Source: a virus
DNA: 40,716 bases
Direction: 5' to 3' (one strand)
UHGV virus genome: UHGV-0322864
This document shows, one piece after another, positions 1 to 28,317 of the stretch. How positions within the stretch are numbered: the stretch's first letter is position 1; every line of letters starts with the position of its first letter. The notes beneath the pieces were generated by a model that was not told the origin of the DNA, did not search any database, and was given only the letters and a program-made list of their open reading frames with translations. Position numbers and translations under genes: made by a program.

Positions 1-247
1 CACCAATACCTTTAGCAAGGTTAGCAGAGATATTAGCACTGCCGGACTGAAGAGCATTTGACACACCTTGAGTAAACTCACCTATAGCACCACGTTCTTC
101 TTGTTGTGATTGTGCTACTGGCTGTTCCTCAGGAATAGAGCCACCTGCTGCCTTATATTGTTCTCTCATTCGAGCTTGTTGCTCCGGAGAGGCATTCAGA
201 TACGCAGGAGCTTTGGAAGCTTCTTCCCACGGTTTAATGTTAGCCAT
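1..247 (-). CDS. hypothetical virion protein, N-terminal part only (gene runs past window start)
   Basis: Minus-strand ATG near 245-247 preceded by AAAGGAG; frame open to position 1; begins MANIKPWEEASKAPAYLNASPEQQ; continues the structural operon. Confidence 0.45.
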   Translation of the reverse strand, partial: MANIKPWEEASKAPAYLNASPEQQARMREQYKAAGGSIPEEQPVAQSQQEERGAIGEFTQGVSNALQSGSANISANLAKGIG

Positions 248-314: not shown

Positions 315-1964
315 TTATTGAGTGAACCAGCTAGTGTCTTCGACAGCTGATAAAGCACCATTCAGTTTAGGATTGGTTGCTGCACCACCAACTGCTTCTT
401 CTGCTTGTTCAGAGAAAACACCTAGAGGGTCGTAGAAACCACCAGAAGGGATTGCACGGTTAACCAATGCAGTAGCTCTCTTCTTATCCATACCAGAACC
501 GATGTAAGCTTCAATCGTAGCTCTCTTAGCATCAGCAACACCTTTCATTGCAGAGGTGTGACCAACGTTAGCTTGCTTACGAGCATAAGCAAGAGCAGCA
601 TCAGTAGGACGCCATCCAGATTTCAGTGCAAACTTGTTGCCAACACGAACGAAGATTGATGGGTCTTCCGCAAAGTGCCCCAAGTCTTCTTCGGTAAGAG
701 AACGAGTAGCACCGATTTCAGCCCTTGCGGAGTTCATGATAGCCTGCATGTAAGCAGAACGAGCTGTCTGATAGTCTTTATCCTTAACAGCCTTATCAGC
801 CAAATCCAAGTCTTTGTTAGACTGGTTAAACAGGCCACCTTTCTCTGCCCACTGCTTAGCAACCGTACCTTCAGCTGTATTCTGAGCAAGACGAACTTCT
901 TTCGGGTTAAAGTTAAAACTCTGAGCAGCTTGTTCAGCACGTTCAGCCTTAACCTTATCACGATAGCCAATCAACTCTTTCTGACGTTCAAAGTTCATAT
1001 TAGCTCTTTCTTCAGCAGCACGACGAGTTTCATCAGCACGCTCACGCATAGTCTGCTCTTGAATCTGTTGACGTCTATCCCATTCAGCATTCTGTCGTTC
1101 TTCACGAGCAGCATACAGCGCTTCTTTCTGAGCAGGGTCTACAGCTCTCATCTTCAGTAGAGATGGGTCTCCGTTAGCAATAGCAGCTGCGATCGAGTCT
1201 TGAGAGAAGCCTTGTTCAATCAGAGCATCACGGTTAGCTTCCAGTTGCTTCTTAGTCTCATCTTGATTAGCCATTCCCTGACCAATCTGGAAAGCTTCAA
1301 TAGGAGACTTACCTGACATAATGGAAAGACCTACACCCATCAAACCTGTGTAGAAACTAGAGTTCTGATAGAATGGTTCTTTCTGTAGCTTGTTCCAAGC
1401 TTCCGAAGGGTCTTTAGCTTTCGCAACTTGCAAGATATCGTTGTTAACACGTTCCTGATCTTTAGCACGAGTAGCGGCAGTCATTCCATCACCAGCGTCT
1501 TGTCCTTGAGCAAGAGTATTAATCACACCTTGTGCCTGTTCCACCTGAGAAGGAGTAAACTCCATAGGACCAGCTTCTAACGGTTTAGTAGGAGGTGTTA
1601 CCGGAAGAGGTTCTGATTCTGGAGGAATAGAAGAAGGAGAAAGTCCAGCAGCTTGCATGGTTTCTTGATTCTCAAACTCAGGAAGAGTTACAGCCTGTTG
1701 TGCTTGAGGTTGTACATCATTTGGGATATCAGAAGGAAGACCATTACTCTGAACAGGATTCAACATATTCTGATAATCTACTGAAGTTTGACCTACAAGA
1801 GAGGAAAGCCCAGCAGGTATAGCAGGACGTTGATACATAGAAATATCTGCTGTCTGAGTTGGTCTAGCCATATAAGGAGAGGCCGAAGCCGCTCCCGGAT
1901 TAACACCATAGAAAGTATTTCTCGGGTCACGACTTCTGACCTGAGCGTAAGTTGTCTGTTGCAT
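315..1964 (-). CDS. hypothetical virion/internal protein (549 aa)
   Basis: Long ORF in the late operon; charged coiled-coil-like middle (ERQNAEWDRRQQIQEQTMRERADETRRAAEE); no recognisable catalytic motif. Confidence 0.6.
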   Translation of the reverse strand: MQQTTYAQVRSRDPRNTFYGVNPGAASASPYMARPTQTADISMYQRPAIPAGLSSLVGQTSVDYQNMLNPVQSNGLPSDIPNDVQPQAQQAVTLPEFENQETMQAAGLSPSSIPPESEPLPVTPPTKPLEAGPMEFTPSQVEQAQGVINTLAQGQDAGDGMTAATRAKDQERVNNDILQVAKAKDPSEAWNKLQKEPFYQNSSFYTGLMGVGLSIMSGKSPIEAFQIGQGMANQDETKKQLEANRDALIEQGFSQDSIAAAIANGDPSLLKMRAVDPAQKEALYAAREERQNAEWDRRQQIQEQTMRERADETRRAAEERANMNFERQKELIGYRDKVKAERAEQAAQSFNFNPKEVRLAQNTAEGTVAKQWAEKGGLFNQSNKDLDLADKAVKDKDYQTARSAYMQAIMNSARAEIGATRSLTEEDLGHFAEDPSIFVRVGNKFALKSGWRPTDAALAYARKQANVGHTSAMKGVADAKRATIEAYIGSGMDKKRATALVNRAIPSGGFYDPLGVFSEQAEEAVGGAATNPKLNGALSAVEDTSWFTQ

Positions 1965-1977
1965 ATTTGTCTCCTAA

Positions 1978-2946
1978 TTAAGTACTAGCCAACCCACCGA
2001 TTACACCCCCAGCTAATGCACCCCAAGGTCCAAAGGAAGAGCCTGCTGCTGCACCACTCATACCCCCTCCTAAGAAGCCACCCCTACCTCCAGATGTTTT
2101 AGTAGTTGTAGTTTGTCCGAGAGCACCGTTAAGTACACCTGCTGCACCGAGTTGGTTATTGATATCTTGCCATCCCCAATTAGCTGCGTTCTGAGCATTC
2201 TGGTAGGCATTATCATATTCATTCTGTTGTTGCTGTTGTTGCTGCAATCCTGCATTCCATTGATTCATTATTTGCTGTTGAGACAAATTAGCACCCTGCT
2301 GACCTAGGTTAGAAAGGTTAGAACCAATATTAGAAAGACCTGAGAGAGCAGCTGCTTGATTCTGTCTATTACCAGAGAGGATGCTTTCAGCTTGGCTAAT
2401 AGCCGAGTTATAGGCACTGTTGGTAATATCTGTTGCTTGGCCTTGCATCTGATTCAGAGCATCACCTTGGGCAAAAGATTTAGCCATACGAGCACCTGAA
2501 CCTTGCTGACCAGCAAACTGTTGAGCTAATTGAGGAAGAGCATTACGTGCCAAGTTCTGTTGAACCTGTTCATTATTAGCGGTAATGGCTGCTTGCACAG
2601 CATCATCGTCATACAGTTGACCAGCGAGAGCACCAATCTGTTCTCCAGTAATCCCACCTTGTCCAGAGAGGCTCTGGTAGCCTTTATAGGCATTATCCAG
2701 ATAACCCAACCCTTGACCTGCTGCATCCATATATTGCTGCGAGAGAGTCCCTAAAGCACCGGATTGAGCCAAATTATTAAGGGCTTCTGTCTGGTTGTTA
2801 TTAAATCCTACGTTGTCACGATAGACATAATCCCCTGAACTAGTATTACCAATCTGCTGGTTAAGCTGGTCAATATACTGTTGAATATATTCAGGGCGAA
2901 TCATTTGGGAAGTAGTTTTACTACCCCCTCCTCCGAAAAGTCCCAT
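1978..2946 (-). CDS. Q/N/G-rich low-complexity protein with glycine-zipper C-terminus (candidate ejection protein), paralog 1
   Basis: 322-aa ORF starting MGLFGGGGSKTT; Q/N/A/G-rich throughout; C-terminal GGFLGGGMSGAAAGSSFGPWGALAGGVIGGLAST. Confidence 0.6.
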   Translation of the reverse strand: MGLFGGGGSKTTSQMIRPEYIQQYIDQLNQQIGNTSSGDYVYRDNVGFNNNQTEALNNLAQSGALGTLSQQYMDAAGQGLGYLDNAYKGYQSLSGQGGITGEQIGALAGQLYDDDAVQAAITANNEQVQQNLARNALPQLAQQFAGQQGSGARMAKSFAQGDALNQMQGQATDITNSAYNSAISQAESILSGNRQNQAAALSGLSNIGSNLSNLGQQGANLSQQQIMNQWNAGLQQQQQQQNEYDNAYQNAQNAANWGWQDINNQLGAAGVLNGALGQTTTTKTSGGRGGFLGGGMSGAAAGSSFGPWGALAGGVIGGLAST

Positions 2947-2958
2947 ATCAAATCTCCT

Positions 2959-4011
2959 TTAGTTTGCTCCAAATGCCCCTAAGACACCACCTAAGATATT
3001 ACTACCTGCTGTGGATAACCAGTTAGACTGACCTCTCTGTTGAGAAAGATTAGAACCTCCAATCATAGGTCCAGCCATTCCAGATTGCCCACCTGAGTTG
3101 TTATAGGAACTCCAAGCATTCTGAGTCTGTTGGTTAGGAGAGAAAGCACCCATACGACCTGCAATACCTAAACCAGTGATACCAGCACCTAGGAGCTGTT
3201 GTCCAGTATTGACTCCCGGAGCAGCATTCTTAATCGTGTACCCAGCCATTGGACTTACACTGTTTAATACATTAAGCTGATTGTTAAGCTGATTCCACCC
3301 ATACTGCTGAGAGCCAATAGCGTTCTGCCAATTAATATCAGCTTGAGCTTGAGCTTGTTGCTGTTGAAGATTACCAGCCATCAGCTGATTCTGAATAGCT
3401 TGTTGAGTTGCCTGAACACCTTGAGCACCAAGATTGAGATTCTGTCCAGCCAATCCTGACTGAGCGCCAAGTAAGCCTCTCTGGAAGTTTTGATCTTGTT
3501 GAAGAGCGCTGATTCCCATATTCTTGCCACTGATAGTACGAGCTAAGTTTGTATTAGCACTGTTCAGAGCAGCACCTTGAGCAGCAGCTCTACGGAGAGA
3601 GCCTGAATCAGAACCATTTCCGAGAGATACATTGGAAGCTGCCTTACTAGTCGCTTGAGCAAGAGCTGAGTTATTCAAACCTTTACTAAAGTTATTAACC
3701 CCTTCAGCCGTTACTCCACCGCCATTAACAATATTCTGATACTGTTGAGCAAGGGAGTTGAGTTGGTCCAAACCTTGCTGTGTACGAGGTGTGTACATAT
3801 CAGCCAATTGCTTTTGAGTTGTAGAAGCTGCTAAGTTATTCAGAGCACCTTGTTGGTTGCCATTAAACCCAGCCAGCTGTTGGGAGATGAATCCCGGATC
3901 GTTGTTCTGCATATTCTGAGCATTAGCAACAATCTGCTTCAGCAGGGCATCAACCTGAGAGGAAGGGGCCACTGTGGTTTTGCTAGAAGCTGATTTTCCA
4001 AATAAAGACAT
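2959..4011 (-). CDS. Q/N/G-rich low-complexity protein with glycine-zipper C-terminus, paralog 2
   Basis: 350-aa ORF starting MSLFGKSASSKTT; same composition and C-terminal glycine-rich hydrophobic tail (ILGGVLGAFGAN) as the neighbouring ORF. Confidence 0.6.
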   Translation of the reverse strand: MSLFGKSASSKTTVAPSSQVDALLKQIVANAQNMQNNDPGFISQQLAGFNGNQQGALNNLAASTTQKQLADMYTPRTQQGLDQLNSLAQQYQNIVNGGGVTAEGVNNFSKGLNNSALAQATSKAASNVSLGNGSDSGSLRRAAAQGAALNSANTNLARTISGKNMGISALQQDQNFQRGLLGAQSGLAGQNLNLGAQGVQATQQAIQNQLMAGNLQQQQAQAQADINWQNAIGSQQYGWNQLNNQLNVLNSVSPMAGYTIKNAAPGVNTGQQLLGAGITGLGIAGRMGAFSPNQQTQNAWSSYNNSGGQSGMAGPMIGGSNLSQQRGQSNWLSTAGSNILGGVLGAFGAN

Positions 4012-4030
4012 AAGTCCTCCTTAAAGATTA

Positions 4031-4813
4031 TTACTTTACACCAATGCTAGCTAAACGTCTGAGCACTGCTTGTGTTTGTGGACTGTACTGAGAACCTGCT
4101 GCATGTGGTGCACTTGCCCTCTGAACTGTTTGAGAAGTAGGAGGTTTACCGGCAAGCATAGCAGCTACCCCTAATACTGCATTACCAAAGTTCTGTTGAG
4201 GCTTCTGGTTTTTACCTTCCTGCACTTCATCAGAGTAAAACTCTACTGGATTTCCGCCTAAAGCACCTGTCTTAGAAGCAGCAATCTCTGCCTGAGTTGG
4301 CGCTTGTGCGGCCTTCTCTCTATCTAACAAGTCAGGACTAAACTGATTGACTGGTTGAACAGCTTGCAAAGCTCCAACAGGGTTCGCAATCTGAGAAGCT
4401 GCATCACCATAGAAAGGAAGAAAGTGTTTATTGTTCATGGAGTCAAGAGCTTGTGGAGTAAACCCCTTTTTACCAGCGAACATTTGCTTAGCACCACCGA
4501 TACCCTCTGAGTAACCAACCATTGCTTTCTTGACATCACCATTAAAAGCCTTTAAGTTATCTCTAATATAACGAGCACCCATATCAATATTCTTTGCTGG
4601 GTCAAGTCTGTCTTCTAGTTTGTAACCGTAGTCTTTAGCCAATCCTTTACTGATCTGCATTAAACCTACAGGACCAGTTCCAGAAGCCGCTGTAGGACGA
4701 CCACTAGACTCTCTTTGGATTACAGCATGAATCAAAGCAGCAGGAATCCTATACTTCTTTGAAGCCTGTTGAACCATTGGGTCTAGTTCTTCAATACCCA
4801 TTTTAATTGCCAT
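4031..4813 (-). CDS. soluble lytic transglycosylase (SLT) domain protein, likely virion-associated
   Basis: N-terminal motif AALIHAVIQRESSGRPTAASGTGPVGLMQISKGLAKDYGY matches the SLT catalytic-Glu signature (ExxxQRESS...GLMQ); sits among structural genes. Confidence 0.8.
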   Translation of the reverse strand: MAIKMGIEELDPMVQQASKKYRIPAALIHAVIQRESSGRPTAASGTGPVGLMQISKGLAKDYGYKLEDRLDPAKNIDMGARYIRDNLKAFNGDVKKAMVGYSEGIGGAKQMFAGKKGFTPQALDSMNNKHFLPFYGDAASQIANPVGALQAVQPVNQFSPDLLDREKAAQAPTQAEIAASKTGALGGNPVEFYSDEVQEGKNQKPQQNFGNAVLGVAAMLAGKPPTSQTVQRASAPHAAGSQYSPQTQAVLRRLASIGVK

Positions 4814-4825
4814 AATATCTCCTTG

Positions 4826-5857
4826 TTATAGTCCAGCAAAAACTTTAGCTGCATTAATTACAGGCATAGATAAATTGACCACAGTATCAGATCCCAAGTC
4901 GTAATTCTGATCCCATTGGAAAAGATATCTCCCATAACCAGTCCCTACACTAGAACCAGCCATTGTGTGAGATCTCATCTGTTGATATCTCCAACCACTT
5001 CCTCGACCTTTTATAGCCCCTATACCAGAGGACAGAGGTATCATAGGGTAAGCCATTCCTGTGTTACCTCCACCCGAACCTATAAAGTTATCAATAGTAA
5101 AAGGTGTTCTATTTGTTGAGAATACACATTGTGTAGTTCCCGGTGAGTAGATATTCAAACCACCATTGTGCTCAGGAACTCCAGCACCATTGCAAAATAC
5201 TGCAACCCTAGCAAATACGGAACCACCTTCGTTGGTGTTTCCATTAACGTATGGACGGTTTTGATAAACCCGTATAACCCTGTCACCAGAAGTATAAGAT
5301 AACCCTAAACCTCCATCAGACCAGTTAGCAAAAACTACAGCATTGGGCATATAGAATCCACCTATATCTGGAATCTGTAGAGCATTATTTATTGTTCCTT
5401 GCCAAGCCCAAATACACTGACCAACAACCCCAGCATCTGATATAGAGAAATAATCAGCTGTATTAGAAAAAGTTATGCCGTAGTTCCTATCAGCTCTAGG
5501 CCAGATTTGATAAACATTAAAACCACAATCAAAAAGAGGATTACTTCCGGGGTTCTGATTTAGGTTGACACGGAAAGATGTGTTATTTTCTACATAAATA
5601 CTACTTACACAATAAACATCTGGAACGAGGTTTGGTGGAACCTCCCATTGCCAACAAAGAGATCCTGTTGGGACAATAACAATCTGACCAGAACCATCCC
5701 ACCCACTAATAGGGAAGGATCTTCCACCACCGTTGAAGTTGAAACTACCGCTTATGGTGTTCTTTATCTGAGGGAAGGTGCTCCCACTATCAATAAAAAG
5801 AGGAGCAGGGGAAGCTGGCCCCGGCCCTACTGGTTGTGCCCAAATTCCATATGCCAT
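4826..5857 (-). CDS. hypothetical structural protein (possible receptor-binding tip protein)
   Basis: 343-aa G/S/N-rich ORF, predicted beta-rich, translationally coupled to the upstream fibre-like gene. Confidence 0.5.
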   Translation of the reverse strand: MAYGIWAQPVGPGPASPAPLFIDSGSTFPQIKNTISGSFNFNGGGRSFPISGWDGSGQIVIVPTGSLCWQWEVPPNLVPDVYCVSSIYVENNTSFRVNLNQNPGSNPLFDCGFNVYQIWPRADRNYGITFSNTADYFSISDAGVVGQCIWAWQGTINNALQIPDIGGFYMPNAVVFANWSDGGLGLSYTSGDRVIRVYQNRPYVNGNTNEGGSVFARVAVFCNGAGVPEHNGGLNIYSPGTTQCVFSTNRTPFTIDNFIGSGGGNTGMAYPMIPLSSGIGAIKGRGSGWRYQQMRSHTMAGSSVGTGYGRYLFQWDQNYDLGSDTVVNLSMPVINAAKVFAGL

Positions 5858-5858
5858 A

Positions 5859-6830
5859 TTACCAACTCCCTATTCTGATTCTCAAAGCACCGCTTCCATC
5901 ATAGAAATCAATCCTGTTTCCATTCATCCAGAGTTGTGCCCCACCTGTACCGCCCATAACAAAGTCACCACCAACAGTGAGCCTCCAGTTAGAACCCCAC
6001 ATAGAACCAGCAGTGATTTTATCCGCTGACAAGTTCTGAATCTGGGCGTTGGAGATGGATACGTTATCAATCTGTGCCCATTGAATTCTAGCGTTAGCAA
6101 TCTGAGCTGTTGTGATATTGACGTTCTTTATATCAGCGAATTCCATCCTAGCTCGCCCACCTTCAAACACGAAGGGAGTGTTACCAGAGTTGCCATCACC
6201 AACAATAAATTTGTTAGCTGTTACTTGGAATTGACTGTTTGTTCCGTTGTTAGTTAATTTGACCCCAGCATATCTTCCGTTGACTGTTGAGTTGACTCCC
6301 CATGTAGCTTCATATTCAGAAAGCTTCATATACTGAGAGAGGCTTCCATTAATATTTTGAATCTCTGTCTGAACTAAAGCAATCTCTTGACCTTGGTCGT
6401 TAACAATCCCTTCTACCGTTTGAATCTTAGTTGTATTGCCTTCAATACTTGTTTTAAAGCCAGATACAGTACTTTCTAATTTTACAGGAGGTTGAACAGA
6501 ATTATCCCAAATATCTTCAGTGGAGAGATTCCCCATCTGTGTTTGGATATCGGCAATAGCTGTCTCTATCTCTGTAGTAATTCTATTCTCAAGCTCATCG
6601 AATTGTAAGTTCATCGCATGAAGAGCTTTGATACGAACATCAATCTCGTCGTGAATCTCGTCAATAGCTTGGAACATTTGGTTAGTAGCTGTACTGACTT
6701 TTTGTAATTCATCATACACGGCTACGTTATATGTTTCTGTGTCCTGTACATTATTGAGAAACCCAACGTTGTACGGGAGTGTGGTGTTGTTACGACCTGT
6801 ATTCTTTCTAAATCCTCCAGCACCCATTCC
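5859..6830 (-). CDS. tail fibre-like protein
   Basis: ORF track gives 5859..6875; the first Met preceded by an SD (AAGGAGG, 9 nt spacing) is MGAGGFRKNTGR near 6830; coiled-coil segment then repetitive NITTAQIANARIQWAQIDNVSISNAQIQNLSADKI typical of fibre shafts. Confidence 0.55.
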   Translation of the reverse strand, partial: GMGAGGFRKNTGRNNTTLPYNVGFLNNVQDTETYNVAVYDELQKVSTATNQMFQAIDEIHDEIDVRIKALHAMNLQFDELENRITTEIETAIADIQTQMGNLSTEDIWDNSVQPPVKLESTVSGFKTSIEGNTTKIQTVEGIVNDQGQEIALVQTEIQNINGSLSQYMKLSEYEATWGVNSTVNGRYAGVKLTNNGTNSQFQVTANKFIVGDGNSGNTPFVFEGGRARMEFADIKNVNITTAQIANARIQWAQIDNVSISNAQIQNLSADKITAGSMWGSNWRLTVGGDFVMGGTGGAQLWMNGNRIDFYDGSGALRIRIGSW

Positions 6831-6855
6831 ATAATCCCTCCTTGCTAGATAATCT

Positions 6856-6885
6856 AAAAACAATAAAAGGGGCACGAAGCCCCTT
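6856..6885 (-). terminator. intrinsic terminator after the 1005-aa gene
   Basis: Minus-strand GGGGC-UUCGU-GCCCC followed by UUUUAUUGUUUUU. Confidence 0.6.
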
Positions 6886-6889
6886 GTTA

Positions 6890-9800
6890 TTATCTTCGTC
6901 CGCCAACAGCAAACTCTATCGTTAACCCATTGATAGCAGCATTACTGTTAACATCATTATCTATAACATTATAGAAAAGGTATGGATGGTTCAGTCTCAC
7001 AGAGACATGCCTGTCAACACCGATCGTGTATGTCTTAGATGTGTGTGGGTGTCCATATTCATTTGAGAATTGACTACCACCAGCTTCAAATATGTAAGTA
7101 CCTGAACCAGTTGTCTGAGGTCTGAACCTGTTGATATGTTTCTGATTCCATTCGTTAGTGATGTTATCAAAATCCATACCAGTTCTTTCTAACCTCATCT
7201 CCAGTGGTTTTTCTATAACCTTATCATTAAGCCTATCATAGAAGTAATCCAAAGCACCAACATCCACTTGATAGAATCCCCTCAAGAATGAACCTACTAT
7301 CGTAACCCTCTGTCTAAAGTTTGTTGCATCCTTTCTCCAAACAAGTTCTTTGATAGATGGGTCATCCCAAGTGATCTCTTGGAAGTCAGACCAGATTGGA
7401 CCTCTCTCTAAAACAGGAGGGTCAACCAGACCGATACACTGAGCATAAGGGATAGTACGGAAAGACCAAGTATCAAACTCATAATTCCATACAGCAGCTT
7501 TAGTGCAAGCGAAGCTTTCTTTCGGCTCTCCCGGACCTACATAGAGAACCCAAACTTCTTTCTTATCCTGATGCAAGTGTACTCGAGTAGCTAGAGGGTT
7601 AACCAGACAAACCTCGTTAATCAGCATGTTCTTAACACGGTTAGATGCAATTGACTTCTTGGTTGCACCATTGTGTAAGATCACATCGTTCTGAGTAACT
7701 ACGAAATGACTACCTTCTACTTCAACCACACACTCAGGAGCAAGGATACCAGAGTCATTAAAGAGTTTCTTGAACATCAGAGGTTGGTATGTGTTATTAG
7801 TTGGAGAACCAATATACGTTTCAAACTCTGTATAAACGAACAAGTAGTCTTTAAGAGGCAGGATATCAATCAAGCTACCATTAGAATCGGCTAGGTCAAT
7901 GTAACCAGCATACCCATTCTCTAGAGCCTGAGTCTGCCCTACGATGTTAGAAGCTAAGTCCGAAGACACAACTCGATCATAGGCAAAGTCATCCCACAGT
8001 GTAGGAGCCTTGTTCTCATTGGCAAAGTTAGACCAACGAAGACGAAGCGGATAGTTAGTGGTAACACCAGAAGCATTAGCCTCTCTCATATTCAGAGCAA
8101 AAAGACGGTTGTTAAAAGATCTCACTCTCTCACATTTCCAGTTAAACTTCTTGACTGAAGGGTTTCCATCATTATCAACAACTGTTTGCTCACCCCACCC
8201 CGGGAGGTCTACAAAGTATTCTGATTCGAATTCTTTTACCTGAGGAGTTTCATAGTGAGTTGTAGCAACTGCACAGTTAGAGATAACAGCGTGATACCAA
8301 GGGTAGTCATCAAAAGCATCATAATCTTTCTGAGTCATCTGGCTGACAGTACATGTTACGTTAATCTCTCCTTTACGAAGAGCAACCAGTTTGATAGATT
8401 TACCAGTAACTGAAGTTGTAGAAACATAACCAGTTTTATCAACAGACCACTGATAAGAGTACTCACCTTCTGGAGAAGCTGTGGCTGTAATGACAATCTC
8501 TTCACCAACATCAAGGGAGGCGCTGACAATATCTAAGGTTACAGACGACAAAGGGGTTGCCAGTAAAGAAGCTCTTGCAAAACCTTCAATGTCATTCACG
8601 TTAGAGTAGTCGTAGAAGTTGTTACCTTCATACATCCCTGACGTATCAATACCGGATGTAGGCTCAGCAAAATAAACCGTCTCTTCACTTTCAGGAGGAG
8701 TTACTACTTCTTCCTCTTGAGTTTCTACTGACTCTGACACAGGAGCGGCAAATGCCATAGCACTTGTTCTCATTGTCCTTCCAGCTAAATCCACACGTAC
8801 AGTACAGACAGCAACTCTGTTACCTTCTTCAGTGGTAGCTGTAATCTCAGTAAAACCAGCAAGCAGAGCGTTGATCGTCCCTTGTGTGCTAGTCCCTGAT
8901 ACTGTTGCAATATTTGGGTTAGAAGAGGTCCAAGTAATATTTTGATTAGGGGCGTTAGCAGGAGAAAGGGTGGCAGTTAAAATATACTGAGAACCTCTAC
9001 TCACAGTAACATCTGACTGGCTTAAAGAGATACTATCAATCTGAGGGATAGAAACAATCTCACAAGAAGCAGTCTTAGTCCCGTTATCAGCAGTGATTGT
9101 TACATTACCTTCTCCATTCGCTGTAATGACAGCAGTTAAAGAGTTGGCGTTAGGGGTTACAGATACAATAGAAGCGTTATTGCTGGACCAAGTTACAGGG
9201 GTTTTGCCAGTAACAGCCGTGAGGGTAGTAGTCCCTCCTTTACGAATTGTAACAGTATCTTGACTCAAGAAGATGCCTGAATCACCATCGATGATATTAA
9301 CAGCAATCTGAGCCACTACGGATTCATTGGCAGTAGAGATAGTTACTACAAGATTACCCTCTTTCTCAAAAGATGTTAGAGTAGCAAGTTTAGAGTCACT
9401 AGGGTCTACCGTAATACTTCCATAGGATGAGTTACTAACCTCCCAAATAAGATCGGTATTGTTAGCATCAGCAGGGAGAAGAGAAACCTCTAGATTCTTG
9501 GTCTGATTGAAGTTCATTGAGATAGTTGATTCTTTAGGAACGATCTGAGAAACAACTGGATAAATCTTAATTGAGGCAGAAGCCTTCTTAGTGACTGTAG
9601 CAACCTTACGGCTAATATCAGTCAAGCTTTCATCTGTCAGTTTATATAACTTCTTATCAGTACCTACAACAAGAAAGCTATTACCTGCGCTATAATAATC
9701 GAAAGGCATAGAAACGAAAGACAGAGGGGTTAAATCCTTATCTTCATCTACATAAGAAAGAGGGGCATTGCCCCCCGTCTTAAATACTCTCTGCTCAACA

Positions 9801-9907
9801 AATCGAGCATTTATAGCATTAGTGAAAGCATTAGGAGCTAAGTCTGTCGGAGCCTGATCAGCGATAACGCCTACAGCACCTAGTGACTTTATTGGATACA
9901 GCGCCAT
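6890..9907 (-). CDS. large virion structural protein with tandem Ig-like (Big_2-type) domains
   Basis: 1005-aa ORF; three consecutive ~90-aa segments with Big_2-like pattern (e.g. VTVSRGSQYILTATLSPANAPNQNITWTSSNPNIATV...TATTEEGNRVAVCTVRV). Confidence 0.7.
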   Translation of the reverse strand: MALYPIKSLGAVGVIADQAPTDLAPNAFTNAINARFVEQRVFKTGGNAPLSYVDEDKDLTPLSFVSMPFDYYSAGNSFLVVGTDKKLYKLTDESLTDISRKVATVTKKASASIKIYPVVSQIVPKESTISMNFNQTKNLEVSLLPADANNTDLIWEVSNSSYGSITVDPSDSKLATLTSFEKEGNLVVTISTANESVVAQIAVNIIDGDSGIFLSQDTVTIRKGGTTTLTAVTGKTPVTWSSNNASIVSVTPNANSLTAVITANGEGNVTITADNGTKTASCEIVSIPQIDSISLSQSDVTVSRGSQYILTATLSPANAPNQNITWTSSNPNIATVSGTSTQGTINALLAGFTEITATTEEGNRVAVCTVRVDLAGRTMRTSAMAFAAPVSESVETQEEEVVTPPESEETVYFAEPTSGIDTSGMYEGNNFYDYSNVNDIEGFARASLLATPLSSVTLDIVSASLDVGEEIVITATASPEGEYSYQWSVDKTGYVSTTSVTGKSIKLVALRKGEINVTCTVSQMTQKDYDAFDDYPWYHAVISNCAVATTHYETPQVKEFESEYFVDLPGWGEQTVVDNDGNPSVKKFNWKCERVRSFNNRLFALNMREANASGVTTNYPLRLRWSNFANENKAPTLWDDFAYDRVVSSDLASNIVGQTQALENGYAGYIDLADSNGSLIDILPLKDYLFVYTEFETYIGSPTNNTYQPLMFKKLFNDSGILAPECVVEVEGSHFVVTQNDVILHNGATKKSIASNRVKNMLINEVCLVNPLATRVHLHQDKKEVWVLYVGPGEPKESFACTKAAVWNYEFDTWSFRTIPYAQCIGLVDPPVLERGPIWSDFQEITWDDPSIKELVWRKDATNFRQRVTIVGSFLRGFYQVDVGALDYFYDRLNDKVIEKPLEMRLERTGMDFDNITNEWNQKHINRFRPQTTGSGTYIFEAGGSQFSNEYGHPHTSKTYTIGVDRHVSVRLNHPYLFYNVIDNDVNSNAAINGLTIEFAVGGRR

Positions 9908-27149: not shown

Positions 27150-27650
27150 CCTTCCCCGTGCCTACTCCCCGTTATTCTTTCCCCGTGTATACTACCCAAT
27201 ACATTACCTACCCGTTTATTTAGTTCCCCTTTAAAGAGTGAGAGAAAGGCTAGACTCTGATAAGGCGTAGTCATAGTGACAATAAGAGAGCTAATAATAC
27301 CCATAAGTAATAGCCCACATCCCCCATAGTTTGATTGTAAATAGTTTCAATAGTAATGATTATGAGTGCAATAATGATGTATGTATTAATTAAGTGGAAA
27401 GATTATGTTTGATGTTTATTATTCTTTTAAGAATGATTGTTTTTATTTCTTTTAATACTTTCTTTTTCAGCGTACATGAGCGTAGCGAATGGTCTTTGAT
27501 GTTTGAGTTATACAATTATTTAAGTGGTATATTACTACCGCACTATCTGGCAGTGTTTCCCCGTGGTCTGTCCTGCGGTTGTGTGTTCCCCGTTTGTCCT
27601 GGTCTGTTGGTCTGCTACCCGTAGCGCCAGCGTAACACCCGTAGCGATAG
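27150..27650. repeat. clusters of short direct repeats in the divergent intergenic region
   Basis: Three TCCCCGT copies at 27152-27186; TTCCCCGT(G/T)...GTCCTG twice at 27557-27606; ACCCGTAGCG twice at 27617-27647. Confidence 0.5.
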
Positions 27651-27700
27651 TGTTATAAAGTAACAATAGCTAGTAAGCTGATTCTCTGAGTATGGAAAGT

Positions 27701-27722
27701 TTAACAAATTAAATTCCTTTAG
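27701..27722 (+). repeat. copy 1 of 22-nt motif TTAACAAATTAAATTCCTTTAG
   Basis: About 40 nt upstream of the early promoter at 27760. Confidence 0.5.
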
Positions 27723-27759
27723 TTTTCAGTGAGTTATAGGAAAGTTAGAAAATAAATGT

Positions 27760-27788
27760 TTGACAGTCTTTTCCTTTATTATATAGTT
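27760..27788 (+). promoter_or_regulatory. sigma70-type promoter for the first early operon
   Basis: TTGACA - 16 nt - TATAGT; a second TTGACA lies 30 nt downstream (27790-27795) without a good -10. Confidence 0.6.
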
Positions 27789-27825
27789 GTTGACAGTTAA
27801 TTGAATCTATCTAAGGAATAACGAA

Positions 27826-28317
27826 ATGGCTAAAGCAATGCAGGTAGTTAATCTGGCAAGTTATGCACTGGTTGCAGCTATCGGGGTTAGTGCACTGGTA
27901 ACTACTCTTTCTGATAAGGCTGTTGCTAGTCCTGCTCCTGCAACTGATGCCGCTAGTGTTTTCGTTAGTTCCATCAATAAGGGTTGGATGATTTGCAACG
28001 GTGCGGATAGTGACGGCAATACCATTGTCTTAAAAATGAAGTTTAGCAACGTAACAAATGAAGGCGTTCTCTTTCAGTCTAAAACGCTAGACAATCAGCC
28101 TAACAATGATCTAGTTCTCAAGCGTACCGATAATGATGCGGATATGGTGACATATGGCACTGTACAACGTTATGAAGACGTTAAGGCTGTAACCAATCTA
28201 GTGAGTTATGGTCCGGTTAATGAATCGATGATCGCCACTACCGTTTATAATAACGCTGATAATGCTGTTTATACTGTTCACGTTAATTTAGCCAACTGCA
28301 TTAAGGCTAGTAAGTAA
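27826..28317 (+). CDS. early secreted or membrane-anchored protein
   Basis: 163 aa; N-terminal hydrophobic segment LASYALVAAIGVSALVTTLS; SD AAGGAA; consensus sigma70 promoter ~60 nt upstream. Confidence 0.6.
   Translation: MAKAMQVVNLASYALVAAIGVSALVTTLSDKAVASPAPATDAASVFVSSINKGWMICNGADSDGNTIVLKMKFSNVTNEGVLFQSKTLDNQPNNDLVLKRTDNDADMVTYGTVQRYEDVKAVTNLVSYGPVNESMIATTVYNNADNAVYTVHVNLANCIKASK

What the first reader, a model, noticed from the sequence alone, without database searches (positions are those of the whole stretch)
1978..4813. Candidate ejection module: SLT transglycosylase next to two tandem Q/N-rich paralogs with glycine-zipper tails
Seen in sequence: the ORFs at 1978-2946 and 2959-4011 start with M(G/S)LFG and are more than 40 percent Q/N/G/A/S. 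Both end in a glycine-rich hydrophobic segment (GPWGALAGGVIGGLAST; ILGGVLGAFGAN), and they sit directly downstream of an SLT-domain protein (4031-4813). Established knowledge: podoviruses such as T7 eject internal core proteins, one with a lytic transglycosylase domain, to build a trans-envelope channel. Inference: these are ejected channel-forming proteins; the composition is unusual and prion-like.
Basis: partly seen in the sequence, partly recalled or inferred. Interest (0 to 1): 0.55.

Follow-up and report, generated by a model that had tools for sequence, protein, structure and literature searches.

The report
Known Kuravirus DNA-ejection protein genes
These are the ejection-protein genes of a phiEco32/SU10-like E. 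coli phage (a cell-wall-cutting enzyme followed by two duplicated glutamine/asparagine-rich helical proteins); near-identical proteins in phage SU10 were already shown to sit in the virion and to leave it with the DNA, so the finding is correct but ordinary.

Summary
On the minus strand, three tightly packed genes encode an SLT lytic transglycosylase (4031-4813), then two paralogs (2959-4011 and 1978-2946; 31% identity, E=6e-14). Both paralogs start M(S/G)LFG, are 25-27% Q/N and 62-63% Q/N/G/A/S, and end in glycine-rich segments. The window is a Kuravirus, about 93% nucleotide identity to phiEco32 and SU10. The three proteins are 96.5-99.4% identical to SU10 gp20, gp21 and gp22. Published work shows gp20-24 in SU10 virions and absent after genome release. 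Databases already label the paralogs "DNA ejection protein" (phrog_4287). Channel formation remains an inference, here and in the literature.

The "prion-like" reading is not supported. The Q/N-rich stretch is the best-conserved, most confidently helical part. The "glycine zipper" is statistically clear only in gp22. No segment reaches classical transmembrane hydrophobicity.

Modest additions:
- The family is linked to Bruynoghevirus LUZ24 gp53/Pa223 gp56, a proposed outer-membrane channel.
- It shows no detectable homology to T7 gp14 or P22 gp7/gp20.
- In distant relatives the domain heads 900-1600 aa proteins, some carrying Peptidase_S74 or peptidoglycan hydrolase domains, with a motif shared with gp23.
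- The SLT, paralog, paralog, gp23 order persists in relatives at about 43% identity.

The parts
4031..4813 (-). Ejection protein with an N-terminal family-1 lytic transglycosylase (SLT) domain in residues 13-116. It is the ortholog of SU10 gp20 / phiEco32 gp22. The Glu35-Ser36 catalytic motif has its Glu codon at 4709-4711. GLMQ is at residues 50-53 and GYSEG at 100-104. The C-terminal half (about 120-260) has no known domain and contains a small hydrophobic stretch, NAVLGVAAMLAGKPP, at 211-225.
   Evidence: Pfam SLT E=4e-24. phrog_12507 full length, E=4.5e-174. Aligns to the T7 gp16 transglycosylase with ES over ES (E=3e-8). 98.1% identical to SU10 gp20. SU10 gp20 is in the virion and is lost on genome release.
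2959..4011 (-). Q/N-rich helical ejection protein, paralog A (350 aa). It is the ortholog of SU10 gp21 / phiEco32 gp23.
   Evidence: phrog_4287 'DNA ejection protein' E=7e-118, full length. 97.7% identical to SU10 gp21. AlphaFold2 with 77 sequences gives residues 10-260 as confident, helices 18-37, 51-96, 102-124 and 137-255, and a small sheet formed by 10-13 with 259-262.
3139..3216 (-). Conserved glycine-rich, mildly hydrophobic segment of paralog A (residues 266-291, ...QQLLGAGITGLGIAGRMGAF). Candidate membrane-inserting element.
   Evidence: Invariant G275 and G288, nearly invariant Q272, G277, G282 and G285 in 17 family members. A glycine-dense 25-aa window (8 or more G) is present in 56 of 77 relatives, in most of them around residues 260-320.
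2962..3021 (-).
   Evidence: Conserved only among close relatives. Glycine-zipper pattern count is not above shuffles (P=0.49). pLDDT below 50.
1978..2946 (-). Q/N-rich helical ejection protein, paralog B (322 aa). It is the ortholog of SU10 gp22 / phiEco32 gp24 'putative DNA injection protein'.
   Evidence: phrog_4287 E=3e-109. 31% identity and E=6e-14 to paralog A. 99.4% identical to SU10 gp22. 49% sequence coverage in the SU10 virion proteome.
1981..2094 (-). Glycine-zipper array at the C-terminus of paralog B (residues 285-322, SGGRGGFLGGGMSGAAAGSSFGPWGALAGGVIGGLAST).
   Evidence: 10 overlapping (G/A/S)xxxGxxxG-type matches against 3.2 in shuffles, P=0.001. The same FGPWGA...GGVIG signature occurs in distant relatives P0064, P0067 and P0085.
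315..1964 (-). Next ejection protein (549 aa), ortholog of SU10 gp23. It belongs to the same module. It carries the motif FYTGLMGVGLSIMSGKSPIEAFQIGQG at residues 204-230 (nt 1275-1355).
   Evidence: phrog_12130 full length. 87% identical to SU10 gp23. SU10 gp23 is in the virion and is lost on genome release. A motif HMM built from 48 long relatives of the Q/N domain hits only this ORF among 383 six-frame ORFs, E=4.9e-4.
1..247 (-). First 82 codons of the giant ejection protein (SU10 gp24, 1473 aa). The gene runs off the left end of the window.
   Evidence: The translation matches the SU10 gp24 N-terminus almost residue for residue. Annotation.

Best explanation
This is the DNA-ejection (internal virion protein) module of a Kuravirus, a phiEco32/SU10-like podovirus with a prolate head. 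The five genes gp20-gp24 are co-transcribed on the minus strand, and their products are packaged in the virion.

After the tail nozzle forms and the needle gp18 drops off, these proteins leave the particle ahead of or with the DNA. This is shown for SU10.

The following steps are inferred:
- The 260-aa SLT protein cuts peptidoglycan locally, using Glu35.
- The two paralogous proteins have a long, uncharged alpha-helical body of about 250 residues, rich in Q and N. This body oligomerises, possibly as a hetero-oligomer or as two stacked rings.
- Their glycine-rich C-terminal segments insert into the host envelope, so that they form the membrane-proximal part of the conduit that extends the nozzle. 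This probably corresponds to the outer-membrane channel proposed for the homologous Bruynoghevirus gp56.
- gp23 and gp24 then supply the periplasmic and inner-membrane parts.
For: **Identity of the locus**
- About 93% nucleotide identity over 9 kb to 90 Kuravirus genomes.
- gp20, gp21 and gp22 are 96.5-99.4% identical at the protein level to SU10 and phiEco32.
- Both paralogs hit phrog_4287 'DNA ejection protein'.

**Experimental evidence in SU10**
- gp20-24 are detected in virions by mass spectrometry.
- They are absent from genome-release intermediates.

**Enzyme**
- Pfam SLT match, with the ES, GLMQ and GYSEG motifs aligned to T7 gp16.

**Family links**
- LUZ24 gp53 has the same length and gene position as Pa223 gp56, which was proposed as a gp14-like outer-membrane channel with transmembrane helices in its Gly-rich tail. 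LUZ24 gp53 hits phrog_4287 at E=2e-10.
- P0085 bridges both PHROGs.

**Functional linkage through fusions**
- In 48 long relatives the domain sits at the N-terminus.
- 7 of them carry peptidoglycan hydrolase domains and 13 carry Peptidase_S74.
- They contain a motif shared with gp23.
- One such protein lies in a locus with a SU10-type adaptor gene.

**Retention of both copies**
- The order SLT, paralog, paralog, gp23 is kept in loci L009-L011 at about 43% identity.

**Structure**
- AlphaFold2 gives a confident helical body, with the Gly-rich tail flexible.
Against: - No direct evidence exists, here or in the literature, that gp21/gp22 insert into membranes or line a channel. The SU10 cryo-EM maps show no density attributable to them.
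- The Gly-rich segments are not hydrophobic enough for classical transmembrane helices: KD19 maxima are 0.94-1.16, no better than shuffles.
- There is no detectable sequence homology to T7 gp14 or P22 gp7/gp20.
- The direct profile comparison of the Kuravirus alignment with LUZ24 gp53 was negative, so that link rests on the PHROG profile.
- The SU10 assay cannot distinguish 'inside the head' from 'attached to the needle that falls off'.
Confidence: 0.8

Rival explanations
1. gp21/gp22 are ejected, but they are not channel subunits. They act as internal core, cargo or plug proteins. Examples would be organising the DNA end at the portal barrel, setting packaging density, or acting in the cytoplasm or periplasm after entry. 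On this view the conduit is made by the nozzle plus gp23/gp24.
For: - No density has been assigned to them, and the channel extension is only 'putative'.
- Their hydrophobicity is too low for classical transmembrane helices.
- The fold search gives only generic coiled-coil hairpins such as ESCRT-III and prefoldin.
- The SU10 portal barrel holds unassigned density described as 'DNA end or ejection proteins'.
Against: - The conserved Gly-rich hydrophobic segment is a family-wide trait.
- The related Bruynoghevirus protein is predicted to be a membrane channel.
- Fusion to peptidoglycan hydrolases in relatives places the domain at the envelope rather than in the cytoplasm.
- A very low charge (6.6-8.7%) argues against electrostatic DNA binding.
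Confidence: 0.12
2. gp21/gp22 are external, trimeric coiled-coil fibre components associated with the tail needle or tip. They are lost on genome release because the needle falls off, not because they are ejected from the head.
For: - 13 of 48 long relatives carry a Peptidase_S74 intramolecular-chaperone domain, typical of trimeric phage fibres and spikes, directly after the domain. BFVD fold hits include S74 and 'tail fiber domain' proteins.
- The body is predicted as a very long helix, 137-255.
- The SU10 assay shows loss together with the needle gp18.
- The needle map is only 10 A resolution.
Against: - The SU10 tail was modelled completely with portal, adaptor, nozzle, needle and fibres, with no unexplained fibre density.
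- The gene position is among internal-protein genes, downstream of the needle and SLT genes.
- The relatives fused to SLT and other hydrolases resemble internal virion proteins such as T7 gp16.
Confidence: 0.05
3. The Q/N-rich regions are prion-like, amyloid-forming domains whose aggregation is part of their function.
For: Both proteins pass the simple criterion of at least 30 Q/N in 80 residues, with 34 and 35. Sequence entropy is low, at 3.64-3.67 bits.
Against: - The Q/N-richest stretch (residues about 171-250 and 195-274) is predicted as alpha-helix at pLDDT 88-96.
- It holds the invariant and near-invariant columns N208, G213, Q217, N230, W239 and N244.
- So it is a folded, position-specific domain, not a disordered low-complexity one.
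- Q/N content of 25-27% is well below that of typical yeast prion domains (own knowledge).
Confidence: 0.03

Closest known systems
SU10 gp20-gp24 / phiEco32 gp22-gp26 ejection proteins (Kuravirus; Siborova et al. 2022, PMC9509320; Mirzaei et al. 2014, PMC4281155)
   Same: Orthologs with the same lengths (260, 350, 322 aa), 96.5-99.4% identity, and the same gene order and strand. The family is phrog_4287, 'DNA ejection protein'.
   Different: Nothing of substance differs. This window is another isolate or contig of the genus, at about 93-94% nucleotide identity. gp23 is more divergent, at 87%.
Bruynoghevirus LUZ24 gp53 / Pa223 gp56, putative outer-membrane channel of the ejectosome (bioRxiv 10.1101/2025.06.11.659172)
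   Same: - Similar size (313 aa).
- An N-terminal K-T-T-S-x-x-x-P stretch, a Q/N-rich helical middle, and a Gly-rich hydrophobic C-tail in which transmembrane helices were predicted.
- It is a virion protein not seen by cryo-EM.
- It lies upstream of a protein of about 500 aa and one of 1000 aa or more.
- It hits phrog_4287 at E=2e-10.
   Different: - It is single-copy there and duplicated here.
- There is no adjacent SLT gene in LUZ24.
- The direct hhalign of the Kuravirus alignment against LUZ24 gp53 was negative.
- The channel role is itself only predicted, from an AlphaFold3 nonamer.
T7 internal core / ejectosome (gp14 outer-membrane pore, gp15 periplasmic tunnel, gp16 with N-terminal lytic transglycosylase)
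   Same: - Podovirus proteins packaged in the head and ejected to span the envelope.
- The SLT domain aligns to the T7 gp16 N-terminus (E=3e-8).
- There is a small, medium, giant size series.
   Different: - The SLT is a separate 260-aa protein, not the head of the giant protein.
- There are five proteins rather than three, with a duplicated small subunit about twice the size of gp14.
- No sequence similarity to gp14 was found, and the proteins fall in different PHROGs.
- No ordered core stack is seen on the portal in SU10.
P22/Sf6 ejection proteins gp7, gp20, gp16
   Same: They are ejected head proteins that are invisible in virion reconstructions, in a phage with a portal barrel and a tail needle plug.
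   Different: No detectable homology (hhalign probability below 1%). They fall in different PHROGs. P22 has no SLT domain detected by Pfam in this set.
phiX174 DNA pilot protein H
   Same: This is an analogy only. H is an alpha-helical protein with a glycine-rich membrane segment. It oligomerises into a wall-spanning tube whose lumen is lined by amide (Gln/Asn) and guanidinium side chains (PMC7354561 abstract).
   Different: It comes from an unrelated virus family, and no homology was tested or claimed. The H tube is a decamer of single long helices. The oligomeric state here is unknown.

Membership tests
Kuravirus ejection proteins gp21/gp22 (phrog_4287 'DNA ejection protein') | Full-length sequence match to the family profile | tested here: met
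   E=7e-118 (residues 1-350) and 3e-109 (residues 1-310). 97.7-99.4% identity to SU10 gp21/gp22.
Kuravirus ejection proteins gp21/gp22 (phrog_4287 'DNA ejection protein') | Synteny: needle, gp19, SLT, paralog, paralog, gp23, gp24 | tested here: met
   The order is also kept in divergent loci L007 and L009-L011.
Kuravirus ejection proteins gp21/gp22 (phrog_4287 'DNA ejection protein') | Present in virions and released on genome ejection | not testable with these tools
   Shown experimentally for the SU10 orthologs (PMC9509320 Supplementary Table 1 and Fig. 4C; PMC4281155). Not shown for this exact sequence.
Family-1 lytic transglycosylase (Pfam SLT, PF01464) | Profile match above the gathering score | tested here: met
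   84.8 bits against a cutoff of 21.3, residues 13-116.
Family-1 lytic transglycosylase (Pfam SLT, PF01464) | Catalytic Glu-Ser motif plus the GLMQ and AYNxG-type motifs | tested here: met
   E35-S36 aligns with the ES of T7 gp16. GLMQ is at 50-53 and G-Y-S-E-G at 100-104 (alignment; sequence).
Family-1 lytic transglycosylase (Pfam SLT, PF01464) | Muralytic activity | not testable with these tools
   Needs a zymogram or muropeptide analysis.
T7-type internal core proteins (gp14/gp15/gp16) | Sequence homology of the small subunit to gp14 | tested here: not met
   hhalign probability 0.1%. T7 gp14 falls in phrog_805, not phrog_4287.
T7-type internal core proteins (gp14/gp15/gp16) | Transglycosylase domain at the N-terminus of the giant subunit | tested here: not met
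   The SLT is a free-standing 260-aa protein, although the domain itself aligns to gp16 (E=3e-8).
P22-type ejection proteins (gp7, gp20, gp16) | Sequence homology | tested here: not met
   hhalign probability 0.14-0.15%. They fall in different PHROGs.
Bruynoghevirus gp56/LUZ24 gp53 putative outer-membrane channel (phrog_7477) | Sequence homology | tested here: inconclusive
   LUZ24 gp53 hits phrog_4287 at E=2e-10, and P0085 hits both PHROGs. However, hhalign of the 17-sequence Kuravirus alignment against LUZ24 gp53 gives probability 0.4%.
Bruynoghevirus gp56/LUZ24 gp53 putative outer-membrane channel (phrog_7477) | Gly-rich hydrophobic C-terminal tail, and a position upstream of a roughly 500-aa and a 1000-aa-or-larger virion protein | tested here: met
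   LUZ24 gp53 tail ...GGGGGGGLGSALGALGGASLGALFGG.... Gene order.
Transmembrane glycine zipper ((G/A/S)xxxGxxxG or GxxxGxxx(G/S/T)) | Pattern present more often than composition predicts | tested here: inconclusive
   gp22 homolog: 10 matches against 3.2 in shuffles, P=0.001. gp21 homolog: 2 against 1.6, P=0.49.
Transmembrane glycine zipper ((G/A/S)xxxGxxxG or GxxxGxxx(G/S/T)) | Segment hydrophobic enough to span a bilayer | tested here: not met
   Maximum KD19 is 0.94 and 1.16, below 1.6 and no higher than shuffles. No dedicated transmembrane predictor was available.
Prion-like Q/N-rich domain | At least 30 Q/N in an 80-residue window | tested here: met
   34 and 35.
Prion-like Q/N-rich domain | Intrinsically disordered and poorly conserved at the position level | tested here: not met
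   The region is predicted helical at pLDDT 88-96 and holds the invariant columns.

The most novel reading that the evidence does not exclude
The Q/N-rich helical domain plus its Gly-rich tail (phrog_4287) may be a widespread but structurally uncharacterised 'envelope-penetration module' of SU10/LUZ24-lineage podoviruses. At least 382 clusters at 50% identity match it.

The module occurs in several forms:
- free;
- tandemly duplicated;
- as the N-terminal head of 900-1600 aa polyproteins that also carry an autoproteolytic S74 chaperone, a peptidoglycan hydrolase and a gp23-like motif.

On this reading Kuravirus gp20-gp23 are the split form of one large ejection protein. The S74 association would imply assembly in multiples of three. 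The uncharged, amide-rich helices would line the DNA conduit, much as in the phiX174 H tube.
Probability: 0.25. Interest if true: 0.5.

Novelty: already known. Interest (0 to 1): 0.2.

Why it matters
How short-tailed phages cross the Gram-negative envelope is solved structurally only for T7 and partly for P22, DEV and N4. The Kuravirus and Bruynoghevirus ejection proteins have no solved structure, and these phages are used in therapy cocktails.

For this window the practical outcome is modest. The genes can be annotated with confidence as ejection proteins gp20-gp24.

The useful leads for specialists are these:
- gp21 and gp22 are ancient paralogs.
- They belong to the same superfamily as the proposed outer-membrane channel of LUZ24-like phages.
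- Natural fusions tie the domain to peptidoglycan hydrolases and S74 auto-processing.

These leads suggest which constructs to express for structural work.

Tried and rejected
- **PDB sequence searches.** Single sequences and the family profile found nothing relevant.
- **First AlphaFold2 run.** With 17 close sequences it gave pLDDT 41 and was unusable. A 77-sequence alignment raised this to 70.5.
- **Fold searches of that model.**
  - Foldseek against the PDB gave a best E of 0.24 (chemoreceptor, XaxAB, Tc-toxin helices).
  - BFVD gave one significant hit, to an uncharacterised protein.
- **Profile comparisons.** hhalign of the family against T7 gp14, P22 gp7, P22 gp20 and LUZ24 gp53 was negative in every case.
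- **Pairwise BLASTP.**
  - gp23 against LUZ24 gp51: not significant.
  - gp23 against P0106: not significant.
  - SU10 gp24 against the 1190-aa gene downstream of P0106: not significant.
- **SLT C-terminal stretch.** The hydrophobic stretch in the SLT protein looked similar by eye to the gp23 motif, but the motif HMM did not hit it, so no claim is made.
- **Related loci.** The search for related loci in viral contigs returned only 8 loci. The word-indexed protein search saturated on low-complexity words and gave only 52 hits.
- **RNA searches.** tRNA and Rfam scans of the window were empty.
- **Prion-like reading.** Considered and rejected, as explained under the rival explanations.


Full report
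**1. What is in the sequence**

All genes of the finding lie on the minus strand.

| Window coordinates | Product |
|---|---|
| 4031-4813 | 260 aa |
| 2959-4011 | 350 aa, starts MSLFGKSA |
| 1978-2946 | 322 aa, starts MGLFGGGG |
| 315-1964 | 549 aa |

- Each gene starts 12-19 nt after the previous stop and has an AGGAG-type ribosome-binding site, so they look co-transcribed.
- Window bases 1-247 encode the first 82 residues of a further gene that runs off the window.

The 260-aa protein matches Pfam SLT over residues 13-116 (E=4e-24, 84.8 bits against a cutoff of 21.3).
- It aligns to the N-terminal transglycosylase of T7 gp16 (E=3e-8) and to MltC, Slt70 and EmtA.
- Glu35-Ser36 sits over the catalytic ES. 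GLMQ is at 50-53 and GYSEG at 100-104.

**2. Is the composition unusual, and are the two proteins paralogs?**

Yes to both.
- Q+N is 25.2% and 26.6%. Q/N/G/A/S is 61.8% and 62.9%, against 26-43% for 15 other proteins of the window.
- Charged residues are only 8.7% and 6.6%.
- BLASTP with compositional adjustment aligns the two proteins over about 300 residues at 31% identity, E=6e-14.
- Both hit a single PHROG family, phrog_4287 'DNA ejection protein', at E=3e-109 and 7e-118.

- The last 70 residues of the 322-aa protein contain 10 overlapping glycine-zipper pattern matches, against 3.2 expected from shuffling (P=0.001).
- The 350-aa protein has 2 against 1.6 (P=0.49).
- Neither protein has a 19-residue window whose Kyte-Doolittle hydropathy (0.94 and 1.16) exceeds that of shuffled sequences or approaches 1.6.
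- In a 17-member alignment, the conserved glycine-rich segment of the 350-aa protein is QQLLGAGITGLGIAGRMGAF at 271-290. It aligns with the start of the Gly-zipper array of the 322-aa protein. The extreme C-tail is conserved only in close relatives.

**3. What the locus is**

- The first 9 kb of the window match 99 phage records. All are Escherichia or Shigella phages of the Kuravirus / Gordonclarkvirinae group (phiEco32, SU10, NJ01, KBNP1711 and others). The listed genomes of the phiEco32/SU10 cluster match at about 91-94% nucleotide identity.
- GenBank annotation of SU10 and phiEco32 maps the genes one to one:

| Window gene | SU10 / phiEco32 product |
|---|---|
| SLT | gp20 / gp22, 'internal virion protein' |
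| 350 aa | gp21 / gp23 |
| 322 aa | gp22 / gp24, 'putative DNA injection protein' |
| 549 aa | gp23 / gp25 |
| truncated gene | gp24 / gp26, 1473 aa |

- Protein identities to SU10 are 98.1%, 97.7%, 99.4% and 86.9%.
- The 350-aa protein is 99.4% identical to proteins already labelled 'DNA ejection protein' in recent isolates.

**4. What is experimentally known**

- Mirzaei et al. 2014 (PMC4281155) detected gp20, 21, 22, 23 and 24 in purified SU10 virions by LC-MS/MS, with 39.6-73% coverage.
- Siborova et al. 2022 (PMC9509320) list the same proteins, with lengths of 260, 350 and 322 aa, as virion components (Supplementary Table 1).
- They show by SDS-PAGE and mass spectrometry that particles induced to release their genome lack gp20-24 and the needle gp18 (Supplementary Fig. 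4C). They conclude these are ejection proteins.
- They saw no density for these proteins in the head. They describe the channel beyond the nozzle as putative, and they assign peptidoglycan degradation to gp20.
- The YF01 Kuravirus paper repeats this assignment.

The refutation condition, absence from virions, is not met.

**5. What I could add**

*(a) Deeper family.* A profile of the 17-member alignment, searched against 1.84 billion representative proteins, found 382 proteins at E≤1e-3.
- Many are proteins of 300-430 aa.
- Many others are 900-1600 aa, with the domain at residues about 1-300.
- All ten proteins checked, seven of them longer than 500 aa, hit phrog_4287.
- Of 48 long members, 13 carry Peptidase_S74 (the intramolecular chaperone and autoprotease of phage fibres), usually directly after the domain.
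- 7 carry peptidoglycan-degrading domains: SLT 3, Hydrolase_2 2, Peptidase_M15_4 1 and GH108 1.
- One such protein, P0106 (1309 aa, SLT at 635-725), lies in a 60-kb contig downstream of a gene with the SU10_adaptor Pfam domain.

*(b) Shared motif.* Nearly all long members share the motif ...W..L..AGLGMMAG.SP.AG.NIG.GGL....
- An HMM of it hits exactly one of the 383 six-frame ORFs of the window: the gp23 homolog at residues 201-232, E=4.9e-4.
- A pairwise BLASTP of gp23 against P0101 gives E=5e-4 on the same stretch.
- Kuravirus gp20, gp21/22 and gp23 therefore look like separately encoded counterparts of pieces that are fused elsewhere. This is independent, purely computational support for a shared function at the cell wall.

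*(c) Link to Bruynoghevirus.*
- LUZ24 gp53 (313 aa) has the same length and gene position as Pa223 gp56. It hits phrog_4287 at E=2e-10.
- P0085 hits both phrog_4287 and the LUZ24 gp53 family, phrog_7477.
- The Pa223 preprint proposes gp56 as a gp14-like outer-membrane channel. It reports predicted transmembrane helices in the Gly-rich C-terminus and an AlphaFold3 nonameric ring, and finds the protein in virions by mass spectrometry but not in the maps.
- A direct hhalign of my Kuravirus alignment against LUZ24 gp53 was negative, so I rate this link as probable, not proven.

*(d) Age of the duplication.* Uncultivated relatives at about 43% identity (L009-L011, contigs of 82-90 kb) keep the order SLT, paralog, paralog, gp23-like. 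The duplication is therefore old, and both copies are retained.

*(e) Family-wide traits.* Across 77 relatives the median Q/N is 21% and Q/N/G/A/S is 54%. 56 of the 77 have at least 8 Gly in a 25-aa window, mostly at residues 260-320. Composition and the Gly-rich segment are family traits, not an oddity of this phage.

*(f) Structure.* With the 77-sequence alignment, AlphaFold2 gives mean pLDDT 70.5.
- Residues 10-260 are confident.
- There are helices at 18-37, 51-96 and 102-124, and a very long one at 137-255.
- A two-stranded sheet joins the conserved N-terminal TTV.P stretch to the conserved MAGYT stretch.
- Residues 266-350 fall below 50.
- Fold searches gave no specific relative.

**6. 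Mechanism: shown and inferred**

Shown, for near-identical orthologs:
- The proteins are packaged.
- They leave the particle when the needle is lost and DNA is released.

Shown here:
- The intact transglycosylase motifs.
- Paralogy of gp21 and gp22.
- The helical prediction and the conserved Gly-rich segment.
- Fusion and synteny links to peptidoglycan hydrolases, to gp23 and to the Bruynoghevirus protein.

Inferred:
- gp20 opens the peptidoglycan.
- gp21/gp22 oligomerise through their uncharged Q/N-rich helices and anchor in a host membrane through the Gly-rich tails, forming the membrane-proximal section of the conduit.
- gp23 and gp24 complete the conduit.
- The amide-rich, almost charge-free surface could serve two needs: passage through the narrow tail in an extended state, and a polar, non-sticky lumen for DNA. 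The phiX174 H-protein tube, lined by amide and guanidinium side chains (PMC7354561), is a functional precedent only.
- The S74 association in relatives hints at assembly in multiples of three.

**7. What does not hold**

- The 'prion-like' label rests on composition. Both proteins pass the 30-in-80 Q/N count. But that very stretch is the most confidently helical one (pLDDT 88-96) and holds the invariant columns N208, G213, Q217, N230, W239 and N244.
- Membership in the T7 gp14 or P22 gp7/gp20 families was tested and not met. The resemblance to T7 is functional, plus the shared SLT domain.

**8. Verdict**

Novelty is 'already known'.

Residual interest lies in the unsolved structure and role of the gp21/gp22 family, and in the fusion, S74 and Bruynoghevirus links found here. 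Interest 0.2.

Noticed in passing
window 5859-6875 (-): The mechanical ORF call starts at a GTG and gives 338 aa. The ATG at 6827 gives 322 aa, which is 98.8% identical to the SU10 gp18 tail needle. The PHROG match also begins at residue 17. The true start is probably 6827.
   Followed up: yes
window 4826-5857 (-): This is a DUF6453 protein (phrog_1265, labelled 'membrane protein'), the homolog of SU10 gp19. It sits between the needle gene and the ejection genes, yet it was not detected in SU10 virions (PMC9509320 Supplementary Table 1). It is also more divergent, at 91.5%, than its neighbours. Its role is unknown.
   Followed up: partly
window 315-1964 (-): The gp23 homolog is only 87% identical to SU10 and phiEco32, while gp20-22 are 96.5-99.4% identical. 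It shares a short motif (FYTGLMGVGLSIMSGKSPIEAFQIGQG, residues 204-230) with the middle of 900-1600 aa relatives of the Q/N domain.
   Followed up: partly
related proteins P0073, P0101 and 11 others (alignment A2); locus L003 10001-13930: In distant relatives the Q/N-rich domain is followed directly by a Peptidase_S74 auto-processing chaperone domain. In some it is followed by SLT, Hydrolase_2, M15_4 or GH108 domains. This suggests polyprotein-like ejection proteins that may cleave themselves.
   Followed up: partly
window 6890-9907 (-): This 1005-aa protein with Big_2 Ig-like domains is the SU10 gp17 nozzle protein. Many GenBank records still call it 'bacterial surface protein' or 'tail fiber; host specificity'.
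   Followed up: no
window about 27300-27830: There is a strand switch here. Long ORFs are on the minus strand to the left (late and structural genes) and on the plus strand to the right. GC skew changes sign at the same place. No tRNA genes and no Rfam matches occur anywhere in the window.
   Followed up: no
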